Of a stretch of DNA of 64,000 nt, positions 9,001 to 24,000 are shown piece by piece. A program made the position numbers. Where the stretch lies: assembly GCA_965223415.1 (NCBI GenBank), contig OZ245002.1:2848001-2912000 (forward strand), given 5' to 3'. This stretch comes from Myxococcota bacterium. Its GTDB lineage: Bacteria > Myxococcota_A > UBA9160 > UBA6930. Numbering within the stretch: the stretch's first letter is position 1; the number at the start of each line of letters is the position of its first letter.

Positions 9001-12000
9001 GGCGACCACGGCGGCACCTACATCGGGAGCCCGCTGGCGACGGCGGCGGTGAACGCGGTGCTAAAGGTGGTGCAGGAGGACAAGCTCGTGCAGCGCTCCG
9101 CGGAGGTGGGGGAGAAGCTGGCGGCACGGCTGCGCGCCTACGCCGAGGCGAATCCGGACAAGGCGGAAGGCGAACGGGGCCGGGGACTGCTGCGCGGCCT
9201 CGTGCTGCGCGACGCCGAGGCCGCCGCGACGATCCCGCGTCGCGCCCTCGAGAAGGGCATCCTCGTGAACGTCACCGCCGGCAACGTGATGCGCTTCTTC
9301 CCGGCGCTGAACGTCCCGGAGGACGATCTCTTCGACTCGGTGGAGACGCTGCTCGGGCTGGTGGACGCGTGAAGCGCTTCCTGATCGGGCTCTCCGTCAC
9401 GGTCAACCTGCTGGTGCTGGCCGGTGCGATCTGGGTCGCGACGGGCGCGCCCCTGCGCGCCGCGGTCCGCGCCTTCGTCCAGCCCGCCCACGACCGCTGG
9501 GTGAGCCAGTTCGCCGTGCTCCCCGTGCAGCCCGGCGACGTCGTCTTCCTCGGCGACTCCATCACAGAGGGCGGCGCCTGGGAGGAGCTCTTTCCGGACG
9601 TCCCCGTCCGCAACCGCGGCATCGGAGGCGACCGCACGCCGGGCGCGCTCGAGCGCCTCGATCAGGTGACGAAGGGCCAGCCGGCCAAGGTCTTCCTGAA
9701 GATCGGCACGAACGACCTCTTCGTCGGCACGCCGGAGGAGGAGATCGCCGCCAACATCGGAACGATCCTCGAGCGCATCGCCAGCGAGTCCCCCGAAACG
9801 AGGGCCTACGTCCAGAGCGTGCTCCCCCGCCAGGCCGAGTGGCGCGAGGCCGTCGAGTCCCTGAACCGCCGCCTCGAAGCCGTCGCCGGCGAGCACGGCG
9901 CCACCTGGGTCGACCTCTACCCCCTCTTCCTCGACCCCGACGACGGCTCGATCCGGGACGACCTCGCCAACGACGAGCTGCACCTGCTGGGCAAGGGCTA
10001 CCTGGTCTGGCGCGACCACATCGACGAGTTGGTCACGAAACGGGGCGAGTTAAGAAGCGGGGCCAGAGTTAAGAATTCAGTTCCCCTTGGGGAACTGAAT
10101 TCTTAACTCTGGCCCCGCTTCTTAACTCGGTGGGGTCTCGTGCTTGCCGAGGGTCAGGACTTCGGGGCCGTCCTCGGTCACGAGGATGGTGTGCTCCCAC
10201 TGAGCGGAGAGCTTCCCGTCGACGGTGACAGCGGTCCAACCGTCGTCCAGGACCTCGGTCTTCCAGTGGCCCAGGTTGATCATCGGTTCGATCGTGAAGG
10301 TCATGCCGGCGCGCAGGCGGGGGCCGCTGCCGGGGGTGCCGTAGTGGAGCACCGAGGGCGGGCCGTGGAAGTGGCGGCCGATGCCGTGGCCGGTGAACTC
10401 GCGGACCACCTGGTAGCCCTGGGCCTCGGCGAAGCTCTGGATGGCGTGACCGATGTCGCCGACGTAGCTGCCGTCCTTCACGCTGCGGATGCCGAGCCAC
10501 ATGGAGTGCCAGGTGTCCTTCACGAGCTGGCGGGCCACGGGCGAGACGTCACCGATCAGGAAGGTGCGGGAGGAATCGCCGTGCCAGCCCTCCAGCCTGG
10601 GCGTGACGTCGACGTTGACGATATCGCCTTCGCGCAGCACCCGACCCTCGTCCGGGATGCCGTGGCACACCACGTCGTTGACCGAGGTGCAGCAGTGGCC
10701 GGGGAAGGGCGGCGTGCCGTGGTTCACGTACTGGTAGGGCGCGCTGACGGCGCCTGCGGAGCGGGTCATCTCGTCCACGGCGCGGTCGACGGCGGCGGTG
10801 GTGACGCCGGGGCCGATCATGTCCGCTACCGCGTCCAGGATCTCGCTGGCCAGGCGGCCGGCGGCCCGCATACCGCCCGCCTCCTCCGGCGAGAGGAGCG
10901 GCGAGATCGACTTCGGGCGTCCGCTCTGCCGACTCTTCTTCTTGTTCTTCTTCATCCGCACGAGACCCAGGAGGATATCGGCTACACGGCGCCGTCGCTC
11001 AACTCCTCCCGGAGGAGCCCGATCAGGTAGGGCCGCATGCGGGAGGGCTCGACGATCTCCTCCAGGGAGCCCACCTCGAGGGCGCGCTGCACAGAGTGGA
11101 TCTCGTCGAACTCCTGGGCCAGCTCGGCCTGCTTCTCGAGGGTGACGTCGGCCAGCACCTGCTCGTAGGCGGCCCGCCCGTTCTCTCGGCCCCGCGGGCG
11201 CGCGGCAAGCACCCGCTCGTCGGCGGCGGCCCGGGCCCGCACCTCCCGGGGGAACACCACCGCCGCGGCGGGCCCGCCGCCGATCACCGAGGCGTAGGAG
11301 CCGGAGAGGGCGGCGGCCCGCAGGCGCGGGTTCAGCTCGCGGGAGAACACCACGTAGGCGCCGCCGTGATAGCGGGACACGACGAGGAAGAGGATCGGCC
11401 CGTCGAAGTTCACGACGGCGCGCGCGATCTCGGCGCCGTACTCGAGCTGGAGCTTGCGCATCGATTCCGGCGAGCCGTCGAAGCCCGAGAGGTTGGCGAG
11501 GATCACCGCCGGCCGGTTGCCGCTGGCCGCGTTGAGCGCCCGTGCCACCTTCTTGGACGAGAGGGGGAAGAGCGTCCCGCCGGTCCAGGCGTTCGGCCCG
11601 TCCGCCGGGTGGTAGCCTTCTCGCGCCATGCTCTGGCTCTCGATGCCGATCAGCGTGACCGGCGTGCCGCCCAGGTGCGCGTCCCACACGATCGCCATCT
11701 CGGCGCCGACCCAGCCGCGCCAGCGCTCGAGCTGGCCGCCGTCCCGGTCGACCACCGCCTCCATCAGCGGGCGCATCGGGAAGGGGCGCTTGCGGCCCGG
11801 GTTGGTGGCGTCGTCGAAGATCTCTCCGACGCTCGCGAACCCGCCACTCGCCGGATCGAGCGTGACGTCCCGCGCGTCGGTGTCTGTCGTCTCCAGCGGG
11901 CGCGGACGCGCCTCCCCGGGCACGATGTAGCTGTAGCGGTAGTGGTCGTAGAGGATGCGGTAGGCGTCGCCCAGATCGTTGGCGAAGTACTGGGCCTCGC

Positions 12001-21000: not shown

Positions 21001-24000
21001 AGAAGTCGGTGCGCGGGATCGTCACCTTGTCCGCGTTGCCCGGGTTCGAGTCCATGGCGACGCCGAGCAGACGGGCGGGCCCTGGCACGCGCGGTGAGAG
21101 CACGGCGGCGGCGGAGCCGTCGCCGAAGAGGACCGCGCTCGCCCGATCCTCGTAGCTCAGGGTCTTCGTCAGGGACTCGTTCGCGATGGCCAGCACGAAG
21201 TCCGGCAGGGCGTCCGAACGCATCGAGGCGACGAACCACAGCTGGGCCAGGAAGCTCGTGCACGCGGAGTTCACGTCGAAGACCGGCGCTTCGATCCCGA
21301 GCTCCTTGGCGACGAAGCCTGCCTCGGCGGGACACACCAGGTCCGGGGACGAGCTACCGGAGAGCACCATGCCCACCTGCTCGGGGCCGATGCCCGCGCG
21401 CTGCATGGCGAGCCGCGCCGAGCGAGCGCCGAGCTGCCAGCTCGTGAGCTCCGCCGCCTCGTCGGCGGCGCGCAGATCCCGGTTCCGGGTCTCGCGGATG
21501 TAGTCGAGGGACAGGACCGTGCGCCGGGAGCGGATCCCGACCCGCTCGACGATCCAGTCGTCGTTCGTCCCGATGTCGAGCTCCTCGAGGAAGCCGTTCG
21601 AGATCTCGTTCTCGGGATGGAAGTGTCCGAACCCGTGGACCCACACGTTCACGCGGTGCCTCCGGAGATGTGCTCGCCGCCGTCGATGCGGATCACCTCG
21701 CCGTTGATCCAGGCGGCCTCGGGCTGACACATCAGGTAGACCACGTTGGCCACGTCCTGGGGCGTCGTGAGCCGGCGGTAGGGGTTGCGAAGCCGGGCAT
21801 GGGCGCGCATGTGCGCGTCGCCGGGAATCGCGGCCTGGGCCGGGGTGTGGGTCACGCCGGGCTGGAGCACGTTGCAGCGCACGCCGTAGGCCGCGTACTC
21901 CACCGCCACCGACCGTGCGACCGACTCGAGAGCCACCTTGGCCGCCGCCACCGCAGCGTAGCCCTTCCACGCCGTGACGTTGCCTTCACTCGTCAGCCCG
22001 AAGACCCGCGCGTCGTCGGCGAAGAGCTGCCGTTCGTGCAGCGCCTGCACCCAGTCGATCAGGCTCGTGCCCATGCTGTGGATGGTGCGGGTGAAGTCCT
22101 CGCTGTCTAGGTACCAGCGGTCGGAGTACTCGGGAGCCGAGGCGATCTCCGCCATCTCGTCGACGCCGTCCTCGAAGAGCCGGTCCGCCGCCTCGCGCAG
22201 CTTCGCCTCGTCCACGCCCAGGGCTTCCGCCAGCCGCGCCGTCGCGGGATTCGGCGGTTTTCGCTCGGGGACCAGCAGCTTCAGGTTCCCGAAGGCGATC
22301 GAGTGGAGGAGCATGCGCACGCGCCCGGTCTCGCCCATGGCGGAGGCCAGCTCTGCGATCAGCTCCGCCTGCTTCTCGGCGGAGAGAGCGTCGGCGTTGC
22401 GCGCGACCAGCTGCACGCCGTGGCCGCGGATCTTCTCGAACTCGGGCTCGATGCGCGCCATTGCGCCACGGCGATCGCGATGGATCACGCACAGGTTCAT
22501 GCCGTGGGCGGCGAGCTTCTGGGCTGTCGCCAGGCCGAAGCCGCTCGATCCGCCGAGGATCACTCCCCAGTCGTCGGCGCTGAACTGGTTTTCGGGATTG
22601 CTCACCCCATTCCTCCTGAGCTGGAACCGGAGTCGCGTCGCGCGCCGAACCTAACGCATTGCGTTATCGGCGTCATGACTGCCGGTCACCCCCTCCGGCC
22701 AGGAGGATGACTGAGAGTCAATCGATGTCAACGGCGCTTCGGTGACTCCTCGCAGACCGATCGAGCAAGCCGTGTGCCGCTCTTCACGAATGCGAACTCA
22801 TCCCCTCCAAGTACCGGATTCTAGGCACCTTTCCGTGATGCCGGTATGAATGCCGTCCCCACGGGACCCCGACGTTCCATGCAGGCTCAGCCCATCCAGG
22901 CGCCATTGTTCGGATCGAGGGCCTGGCCGGTGAATCCGACGCCGGCCGGCGAGAGCAGGAAGGCCACCAGACCGGCGATCTCCTGGGGCTCGCTGATGCG
23001 CTGGAGGGGCACGTCGTCGAGCAGCTGCCGGCGCATGTCCGCATAGGGCCGCCCCTCCAGGTCGCCGAGCTCGGTCATTCGGTCCACCGCCATCCGGGTC
23101 TCCACCCAGCCGGGACAGATCGCGTTGACCCGCACCTGCTTCGGCGCGAGCTCCGCGGCCAGGGAACGCACGAGGCCGAGCTGGCCGGCCTTCGCTGCGC
23201 TGTAGGCGGAGATGCCGGGGACGCCGAAGCGCGCCACGCACGACGAGATCACGATCGCGTGCTTCGGCCCGTCGCCGGGCGCCAGGTGGTCCTCGAAGGC
23301 GCGAAGCGTGAAGTAGGCGCCGTCGAGGTTCGTGCGCACGATCGCGTCCCAGCGGTCCTCCCCGCCGTCGACGTCGTTGGGGCCACCGATGCCCGCGTTG
23401 GCCACCACGGCATGGAGCGGGCCGAGCTGCTCGCGGATGGCGGCGAAGGCCGCGTCGACGGCGCCGCGGTCCGCGACGTCGGCGGGAGCGACGAAGGCCG
23501 CGCCCTTCGCCTCGGCGGCCACCGCCTCGAGAGTCGCCCGGGTCCGCCCGATCAGGCCGAGCGCCGCGCCGTCCGCTGCGAGCCGGAGGGCGATGGCCCG
23601 ACCGATGCCGCTTCCGGCGCCGGTCACCACCGCCACCCGCCCGCGCTGGTCGACCATGAGGCGAGGTTAGCCCGCATCCTCCGGGAGACCGACCTCGGCG
23701 AGGACGGAGACGAGCTCGGTGGAGCGCACCACCCGCACCTCGCAGCCGGGCGGTACCGCCTCGTTCAGCCTCGCGAAGTAGCGCTTCTCCGAGCGGCCCT
23801 CGACGATGACGACGATGCCCCGGTCCTCCTCGGTGCGGATCAAGCGGCCGGCCATCTGCTTCAGATTCAGCAGCATCTTGCCCAGCGACGACTTCTGGAA
23901 GGGCGAGATGCCGCGGGCCTTGAGCCGCTGCTCCCGGCGCTGGCGCAGCTCGGTCGGCACCTCGAAGGGCAGCTTCTCGATCACCACCGCCTGCAGCGCG

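What a model noticed while it worked through the whole genome (the two positions that open the first line are those of the whole stretch)
10982..22605. AccABCD, PlsX and PlsY absent: a 1862-aa single-chain ACC inside a separate FAS II operon
The class has no heteromeric acetyl-CoA carboxylase. A eukaryote-style BC-BCCP-central-CT polypeptide (g02678) closes an operon with FabI-, FabH-, FabG-, FabZ- and FabB-like genes, ACP, an acyltransferase and a phosphopantetheinyl transferase, while the ancestral rpmF-fabD-acpP-fabF cluster has lost plsX, fabH and fabG.
Evidence so far: accA 0 of 25 class genomes, controls 7 of 14; domain order; weak ACC_central match, E 1e-4; its CT part hits only eukaryotic ACC structures; central region in 19 of 21; next to ACPS in 98 of 192 order genomes; no PlsX or PlsY family, two PlsB-type enzymes.
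(Added by a program. Inside this text positions count along the whole contig: contig position 2,848,001 is position 1 of the stretch shown here. "Call 12" and the like, gene names such as g00115 and contig names such as C1 are that model's own, and its searches are not shown. The text may have been shortened before it was handed on; [...] marks where a part breaks off. The agent that wrote the report below was given it as the finding of a first reader that could run no searches.)

Follow-up and report, generated by a model that had tools for sequence, protein, structure and literature searches.

The report
Replacement fatty-acid operon, eukaryote-type carboxylase
An uncultured group of myxobacteria-like bacteria lacks several standard fatty-acid genes and instead carries one operon ending in a one-piece carboxylase built like the yeast and human enzyme, a type known from actinobacteria; about a quarter of the genomes in its order lack the operon's key enzymes and may have to scavenge fatty acids.

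Summary
The nine-gene operon and intact 1862-aa carboxylase are real. Its central region is a true eukaryotic-ACC central domain (profile E 3e-23; fold E 3e-21), but this type is known (Saccharopolyspora SACE_4237, 2019), spans several phyla and is not specially close to eukaryotes in my trees. The absences are overstated: accA is found in 4 of 225 class genomes, all on tiny contigs, yet this genome has an AccC-scoring biotin carboxylase, PlsX occurs in 25 of 225, and 28 lack the carboxylase. Added here: the operon looks like a replacement, not an extra. Canonical fabZ is missing between skp and lpxA in 27 of 27 order genomes but present in 3 of 3 of the other family-level group in the class; FabA/FabZ-family genes track the operon (142 both, 44 neither, 7 mixed, of 193). 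Outside the class the carboxylase and accA co-occur in 1 of 83 genomes. Operon remnants show repeated erosion, predicting fatty-acid scavengers. 199 of 225 lack both PlsX and PlsY; this genome has two PlsB-type enzymes. No activity was tested. The scan reported this operon before on other DNA. New variant of a known kind.

The parts
21649..22605 (-). FabL-like enoyl-ACP reductase candidate (318 aa, SDR, Tyr-X6-Lys)
   Evidence: NF005975 FabL 103 bits, cut-off 328; PF12241 E 4e-7; Tyr-X6-Lys in 17 of 17 copies
20657..21652 (-). FabH-like ketoacyl-ACP synthase III (331 aa)
   Evidence: PF08541/PF08545; NF006829 196 bits, below cut-off; Cys, His, Asn motifs visible in the sequence
19929..20660 (-). 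FabG-like ketoacyl-ACP reductase (243 aa)
   Evidence: TIGR01830 253 bits, cut-off 297.75; best FabG-like match in this genome
19478..19939 (-). FabZ-like dehydratase (153 aa)
   Evidence: PF07977 E 5e-18; one of two PF07977 genes in the genome, the other being a relocated FabA
18198..19481 (-). FabB/FabF-type elongation ketosynthase (427 aa)
   Evidence: PF00109/PF02801; orthologue in 147 of 225 class genomes
17935..18180 (-). Operon-specific ACP (81 aa), Ser in N-S-A rather than D-S-L
   Evidence: PF00550; 30% identical to the genome's AcpP, 70-80% to operon copies, Ser41 invariant
17171..17923 (-). PlsC-superfamily acyltransferase (250 aa, HX4D)
   Evidence: PF01553 E 7.5e-14; NH-X4-D in 33 of 33 copies; acceptor unknown
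16567..17184 (-). AcpS-type phosphopantetheinyl transferase (205 aa)
   Evidence: PF01648 39.6 bits, cut-off 25; stop overlaps the ACC start by 4 nt
10982..16570 (-). Single-chain acyl-CoA carboxylase, 1862 aa: BC about 7-455, BT, BCCP about 591-655, central domain about 663-1305, CT about 1300-1855
   Evidence: Pfam domains; central-region profile hits only eukaryotic ACC chains, best E 3e-23; model pLDDT 91, best fold match yeast ACC E 3e-21
10122..10955 (-). Methionine aminopeptidase-family gene 26 nt downstream; neighbour, probably not part of the pathway
   Evidence: PF00557 E 3e-51; follows the ACC only in close relatives
23667..26441 (-). DinG-family helicase/exonuclease gene; upstream marker of the operon's site across the order
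   Evidence: beside full or eroded operons

Best explanation
The operon is the main de novo type II fatty-acid synthase of this order and the 1862-aa protein is its acetyl-CoA carboxylase, a SACE_4237-type enzyme. Steps: (1) the ACC makes malonyl-CoA (inferred from homology); (2) the genome's only FabD, at the rpmF site, loads it on the operon ACP, which the operon PPTase activates (inferred); (3) FabH, FabG, FabZ/FabA, KS and the FabL-like reductase run the cycle, FabA plus KS giving unsaturated chains (inferred); (4) PlsB-type enzymes acylate glycerol-3-phosphate without PlsX/PlsY, and the operon acyltransferase may take acyl chains from the operon ACP (inferred). History: the fused ACC replaced accA/accD-type subunits across the class (pattern shown); in this order the FAS block sits with it while canonical fabZ and fabG are gone from their usual sites (shown); several lineages later eroded the operon (shown) and probably scavenge fatty acids (inferred).
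For: Central domain homologous to eukaryotic ACC by profile and fold, the hallmark of SACE_4237, which is essential for fatty-acid synthesis (PMC6491548). accA in 4 of 225 class genomes, all on 2.5-5.1 kb contigs; fused ACC in 197 of 225. Outside the class: accA only 30, fused only 19, both 1, neither 33 of 83; in two families the one genome without accA is the one with the fused enzyme. skp abuts lpxA in 27 of 27 order genomes; fabZ lies between them in 3 of 3 f13 genomes. fabG is in the rpmF cluster of 4 of 4 f13 loci and 0 of 7 order loci, this genome included. PF07977 tracks the operon KS in the order: 142 both, 44 neither, 2 and 5 mixed. 22 of the 24 order genomes without the ACC also lack the operon KS.
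Against: No enzyme, lipid or RNA data. 49 of 193 order genomes lack the operon KS, so it is dispensable for some, and 27 of these keep the ACC. acpP-fabD-fabF and lpxA persist in operon-less genomes, and MaoC/HadAB-type dehydratases were not searched, so a second working cycle is possible. This genome has other carboxylases that could make malonyl-CoA and a second FabH homologue. All six operon FAS genes (reductases, synthases, dehydratase, ACP) score below NCBIfam cut-offs. Many relatives of the ACC serve PfaA-like PKS clusters, not housekeeping FAS. Related genomes are not independent, and most are incomplete MAGs.
Confidence: 0.62

Rival explanations
1. Accessory lipid operon: it makes a special acyl chain on its private ACP and attaches it with its own acyltransferase, while bulk fatty acids come from AcpP-FabD-FabF with dehydratase and reductase of unrecognised families.
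For: Private ACP, PPTase and acyltransferase; KS absent from 49 of 193 order genomes; acpP-fabD-fabF kept in those checked; FabG passing the cut-off elsewhere in 8 of 61 order genomes.
Against: Needs a hidden dehydratase across the whole order, since canonical fabZ is absent from the lpx site in 27 of 27 and 44 of 49 operon-less genomes have no PF07977 match; no tailoring or export genes in the operon; the genome's only eukaryote-type ACC is inside it.
Confidence: 0.25
2. The fused enzyme is mainly a propionyl- or broad acyl-CoA carboxylase; most malonyl-CoA comes from two- or three-subunit carboxylases.
For: SACE_4237 also carboxylates propionyl-CoA with a lower Km; the genome has an AccC-scoring BC, a small BCCP and seven other CT genes; f9 genomes without the fused enzyme have a PccB-BC-BCCP cluster; 33 of 83 phylum genomes have neither accA nor the fused enzyme.
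Against: Coupled to FAS genes; near-exclusive with accA; the standalone BC sits beside a malic enzyme gene, at the site where f9 genomes have their PCC-like cluster.
Confidence: 0.1
3. This class, or its ancestor, donated the eukaryotic ACC.
For: Same domain order and central domain; the AU test did not reject a clade of eukaryotic plus class-type CT domains (p 0.22).
Against: In both CT trees eukaryotes are sister to all bacterial fused ACCs (support 99-100), not to this class; CT identity to eukaryotes is about 25% against 56-61% to actinobacterial and acidobacterial copies. The stems are very long, so the position is unresolved.
Confidence: 0.04

Closest known systems
SACE_4237 of Saccharopolyspora erythraea, homodimeric multidomain acyl-CoA carboxylase (PMC6491548; parts 1-3 of 5 read, supplement text searched)
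   Same: About 200 kDa BC-BT-BCCP-central-CT chain, central region homologous to eukaryotic ACC, host without the E. coli-type ACC. A Streptosporangiaceae copy (a family the paper names) is 59% identical in CT (L218).
   Different: Paper reports only actinobacteria; here Gram-negative Myxococcota-labelled genomes, inside a FAS II operon with its own ACP, PPTase and acyltransferase. SACE_4237 itself was not in hand for alignment; activity and dimer state untested.
Eukaryotic ACC (yeast 5CSK/5CSL, Chaetomium 5I6H, human ACC1)
   Same: Domain order; central-domain fold (E 3e-21, TM 0.54 over the query).
   Different: About 350-500 aa shorter; 13-18% identity in the central domain, about 25% in CT; BC is closer to MCC/PCC/PYC alpha chains.
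E. coli-type FAS II with FabA-FabB unsaturation and PlsB/PlsC
   Same: FabH, FabG, FabZ, FabA (NF003509 passed), KS, ACP and PlsB-type acyltransferases.
   Different: One operon with a second, divergent ACP and no FabD; FabL-like rather than FabI reductase; no AccA/AccD, PlsX or PlsY.
PlsX/PlsY-free lineages: mycobacteria and Xanthomonadales (PMC10593935, passages read)
   Same: No PlsX/PlsY, two PlsB candidates; one passes the NF002886 cut-off (890 vs 721).
   Different: That paper lists no myxobacterial group; here 199 of 225 class genomes lack both and 25 keep PlsX without PlsY, outside the rpmF cluster.
Type R pfaA-like clusters of Acidobacteria (PMC3098273, passages read)
   Same: That paper notes an ACC gene between pfaA and the PPTase in Koribacter; many named relatives of this ACC lie between a PfaA-like PKS and an Sfp-type PPTase.
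   Different: A separate branch of the CT tree; iterative PKS rather than FAS II.

Membership tests
SACE_4237-type bacterial multidomain ACC | One chain of about 200 kDa, BC-BCCP-central-CT | tested here: met
   1862 aa, domain order
SACE_4237-type bacterial multidomain ACC | Central region homologous to eukaryotic ACC central domain | tested here: met
   11 hits, all ACC, E 3e-23 to 5e-13, next hit E 0.11; fold search E 3e-21
SACE_4237-type bacterial multidomain ACC | CT groups with actinobacterial multidomain and eukaryotic CTs, apart from PCC/MCC/LCC | tested here: met
   Support 100 against the outgroups in both trees; SACE_4237 itself not included
SACE_4237-type bacterial multidomain ACC | Acetyl/propionyl-CoA carboxylase activity, active as homodimer, essential for fatty-acid synthesis | not testable with these tools
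   Catalytic and biotin motifs intact in sequence only
Long-chain acyl-CoA carboxylase (single-chain LCC) | About 1100 aa, no central domain | tested here: not met
   The protein has a 640-aa central domain; a separate 1125-aa single-chain carboxylase exists at L074
E. coli-type heteromeric ACC (genome level) | Separate AccA and AccD subunits | tested here: not met
   Best AccA match in this genome E 7e-9, a cross-match; no TIGR00513 match; all 8 PF01039 matches span the full CT
E. coli-type heteromeric ACC (genome level) | Standalone AccC and AccB | tested here: inconclusive
   A BC passes TIGR00514 by 0.8 bit; the free BCCP is 72 aa and matches short-BCCP models
Housekeeping FAS II | Full set of initiation, reduction, dehydration, enoyl reduction and elongation enzymes with catalytic residues | tested here: met
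   FabD and, in this genome, FabA lie elsewhere; enoyl-reductase role rests on motif and a sub-cut-off score
Housekeeping FAS II | Makes the bulk membrane acyl chains and is needed without fatty-acid supply | not testable with these tools
   Indirect only:
PlsB glycerol-3-phosphate acyltransferase | Acyltransferase plus GPAT_C domains, curated cut-off | tested here: met
   793-aa gene passes NF002886; 887-aa gene has both domains but is below PlsB cut-offs

The most novel reading that the evidence does not exclude
A whole order of free-living Gram-negative bacteria swapped its inherited fatty-acid synthase for a portable cassette (eukaryote-type ACC, private N-S-A ACP, PPTase, acyltransferase) and split the work between two ACPs: the cassette makes bulk membrane acyl chains, while the leftover AcpP-FabD-FabF, stripped of its dehydratase, only makes 3-hydroxyacyl donors for lipid A. 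At least five lineages then lost the cassette piecemeal and became fatty-acid scavengers with 4-6 Mb genomes, some keeping PlsX without PlsY.
Probability: 0.3. Interest if true: 0.72.

Novelty: new variant of a known kind. Interest (0 to 1): 0.5.

Why it matters
It extends the eukaryote-type ACC from actinobacteria to a large Gram-negative lineage where it seems to displace accA, giving many compact, unstudied models for the origin and regulation of the eukaryotic enzyme and single-gene malonyl-CoA sources for engineering. It adds a group to the short published list of bacteria without PlsX and PlsY. It predicts that a quarter of the order needs external fatty acids, which can be tested and could guide cultivation.

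Tried and rejected
Single-sequence fold of the central region was unusable (pLDDT 43); the 62-sequence alignment worked. Viral contigs: no relative. Plasmids: no match to the operon KS at E 1e-60. No RNA holder listed. No sigma-70-like promoter and no terminator at the operon ends in consensus scans. Cluster-member names could not be looked up, so the representative proteins in the trees have no taxon and SACE_4237 was not aligned. The FabI model NF005717 was not diagnostic, since no control passed it. Type I FAS as a substitute in operon-less genomes: the large AT proteins in G041 and G064 are NRPS-coupled PKS modules, G042's is a partial PfaA-like PKS, and G051 and G217 have none. The plus-strand ORF 10140-11030 had no family match and is antisense to the aminopeptidase gene. 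ESM Atlas gave only generic ACP and SDR clusters. Literature: 'multidomain + acetyl-CoA carboxylase + Myxococcota + eukaryotic' gave 0 papers; searches listed no description of this operon (listings only, open-access library). The Livieri supplement text had no hit for myxobacteria, proteobacteria or Acidobacteria, but its figures are pictures; bioRxiv supplements were not seen. The class name UBA9160/Myxococcota_A is my recalled guess, not a call result.
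Full report
Observation. The minus strand of 10982-22605 holds nine genes: a FabL-like SDR, FabH, FabG, FabZ-like, a FabB/F-type KS, ACP, a PlsC-superfamily acyltransferase, an AcpS-type PPTase and a 1862-aa carboxylase. 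Six of eight junctions overlap, two have 11-17 nt gaps, and GC3 is 0.86-0.95. The carboxylase starts at GTG 16570, overlapping the PPTase stop. Contigs of three public runs cover the stretch with no listed letter differences (these may include the source sample). A methionine aminopeptidase gene follows 26 nt downstream on the same strand. Close relatives are labelled Myxococcota or Deltaproteobacteria MAGs; the class name UBA9160 is my recalled guess.

The carboxylase. Order is BC, BT, BCCP (EAMKM), about 640 aa of central region, CT, with catalytic motifs intact. The weak Pfam ACC_central match (E 0.002) becomes firm: a 62-sequence profile of the central region hits 11 PDB sequences, all eukaryotic ACC, best E 3e-23, next hit E 0.11, and its model (pLDDT 91) matches yeast ACC at E 3e-21. 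The CT's 17 best PDB hits are ACC chains, followed by PCC-beta chains from E 7e-10. This is the architecture of SACE_4237, shown by Livieri et al. to be a homodimeric acetyl/propionyl-CoA carboxylase essential for fatty-acid synthesis, with orthologues reported in actinobacteria only (PMC6491548, parts 1-3 of 5 read). The family is much wider: the best 80 of 593 confirmed genome loci include Acidobacteriota, Actinomycetota, Myxococcota and others, many between a PfaA-like PKS and an Sfp-type PPTase, as noted for Koribacter in PMC3098273 (passages). In CT trees (75 rows FastTree; 39 rows IQ-TREE) eukaryotic ACCs are sister to all bacterial fused enzymes and the window protein lies in a Myxococcota clade. 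An AU test did not reject grouping eukaryotes with that clade (p 0.22), so there is no support for, and no exclusion of, a special link. PMC3199775 (passages) also warns that eukaryotic ACC positions are unreliable.

The absences. Full-strength AccA matches occur in 4 of 225 class genomes; all other matches are weak cross-hits, E above 1e-17. The four sit on contigs of 2.5-5.1 kb, three with neighbours that have no match in this genome, the fourth an AccD-AccA fusion beside an Sfp-type PPTase; bin contamination is likely but not shown. The fused ACC is in 197 of 225, and 105 of 118 high-quality genomes. This genome does have a standalone BC that passes the accC cut-off by 0.8 bit, a 72-aa BCCP and seven other CT-domain genes, so 'AccABCD absent' should read 'AccA/AccD-type CT absent'. 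In a phylum sample, 83 genomes outside the class split into accA only 30, fused only 19, both 1, neither 33 (Fisher p 0.0004, overstated by kinship; one of the accA matches is below cut-off). In families f15 and f33 the single genome lacking accA is the one with the fused enzyme; G312's copy is 72% identical in CT and has no operon. Of five Polyangiaceae- or Myxococcaceae-labelled genomes with the enzyme, one has accA. PlsX is in 25 of 225 class genomes, after a MoxR-DUF58-TgpA block rather than at rpmF in the loci read; PlsY is in 1 of 225, a bin with 9% contamination, and 26 of 83 outside the class. So 199 of 225 lack both. PMC10593935 (passages) names only archaea, eukaryotes, Xanthomonadales and mycobacteria as lacking both. 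Two PlsB-type genes are confirmed among 16 acyltransferase matches.

Replacement, not addition. The class's other group (f13) has the fused ACC alone, about 1700 aa, in 3 of 4 loci read, keeps fabG in rpmF-fabD-fabG-acpP-fabF (4 of 4 loci) and keeps canonical fabZ between skp and lpxA. In the window's order skp abuts lpxA (0-14 nt) in 27 of 27 genomes, against fabZ present in 3 of 3 f13 genomes (30 loci of 32 genomes searched), and fabG is missing from the rpmF cluster in 7 of 7 loci. The operon KS is in 144 of 193 order genomes and 3 of 32 f13 genomes. FabA/FabZ-family matches follow it: 142 both, 2 KS only, 5 dehydratase only, 44 neither. Most relatives carry a true FabA inside the operon; here it has moved to C1:769262. 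The genome has one FabD, so the operon must borrow it. G012 (f13) has the operon and an ACC that groups with order copies, suggesting transfer as a block; G017 has the FAS genes too.

Repeated loss. At the dinG-marked site different remnants survive: fabG alone in G064, fabG-ACC in G180, fabL-fabG-ACC in G035, fabH-ACC in G042, fabH-acyltransferase-ACC in G224. Of 24 order genomes without the ACC, 22 also lack the KS; the other two are 68% and 79% complete. All 32 genomes tested keep lpxA and the five tested keep an acyltransferase of the FabD family. PlsX is in 22 of 49 operon-less and 3 of 144 operon-bearing genomes, mostly two families. I infer fatty-acid scavenging in these lineages, with AcpP-FabD-FabF kept for 3-hydroxyacyl donors of lipid A, which need no dehydratase (own knowledge). 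This is not shown: MaoC-type dehydratases were not searched, some operon-less genomes have a FabG above cut-off, and MAG gaps inflate absences.

Earlier notes. The scan found look-alikes in 19 windows of 19 genomes and eight listed reports describe the same enzyme or operon, some as a second synthase, one as the main operon. I had reached the SACE_4237 match and the replacement reading before looking. A words search for the fabZ-loss and auxotrophy idea found nothing.

Verdict. Real and mostly as described; the enzyme is a member by sequence and structure of a known family, activity untested. The unpublished part, as far as my searches reach, is its displacement of accA in Myxococcota, the order-wide swap of FAS genes and the repeated later losses. 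New variant of a known kind; interest 0.5.

Noticed in passing
L065:8049-13839 (G000:C1 about 1962048-1967838, minus): Three-gene carboxylase unit beside a malic enzyme gene: 557-aa divergent CT, 917-aa BC-insert-BCCP protein with an unusual biotin motif (EVMKM), and a 448-aa standalone BC. In f9 genomes the same site holds PccB-BC-BCCP, so CT and BCCP seem to have been swapped.
   Followed up: partly
L075:7809-8027 (G000:C1 about 4033808-4034026, plus): Free 72-aa BCCP next to ffh; with the standalone BC it may serve four CT-beta genes that have no BC beside them (L070-L073).
   Followed up: no
L177-L231 and L118 (G042): A branch of the fused ACC family sits between a PfaA-like iterative PKS and an Sfp-type PPTase across Acidobacteriota, Actinomycetota and others; G042 and G187 carry a second, more distant copy. 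Product unknown.
   Followed up: partly
P0281, P0282, P0283, P0264: 2270-2380 aa versions with N-terminal extensions; P0281 and P0283 nest among bacterial fused ACCs, and P0281 and P0282 carry a C-terminal biotin-protein ligase domain (self-biotinylating fusion). Hosts unknown.
   Followed up: partly
P0284: 2142-aa ACC from a 10.6 kb metagenome contig on a long branch within or at the base of the eukaryotic clade; source organism unknown.
   Followed up: no
L132-L136: plsX in these class genomes follows MoxR-DUF58-TgpA genes and, where checked, precedes a HAD hydrolase; it occurs without plsY.
   Followed up: partly
L067 and L068 (G000:C1 about 3493000-3510000 and 4938000-4946000): Two further KS/ACP clusters of aryl-polyene or flexirubin-like make-up, one with an ammonia-lyase and a halogenase-like gene.
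   Followed up: no
G000:C1:1499350-1500357 and 426408-426647: A second FabH homologue and a further canonical-looking ACP stand alone elsewhere in the genome.
   Followed up: no
L066:4974-6680: RpiB and GlyA appear fused in one 568-aa frame after fabF, also in several order genomes.
   Followed up: no
L120-L122: f13 fused ACCs are about 150 aa shorter, with a gap in the central domain.
   Followed up: no
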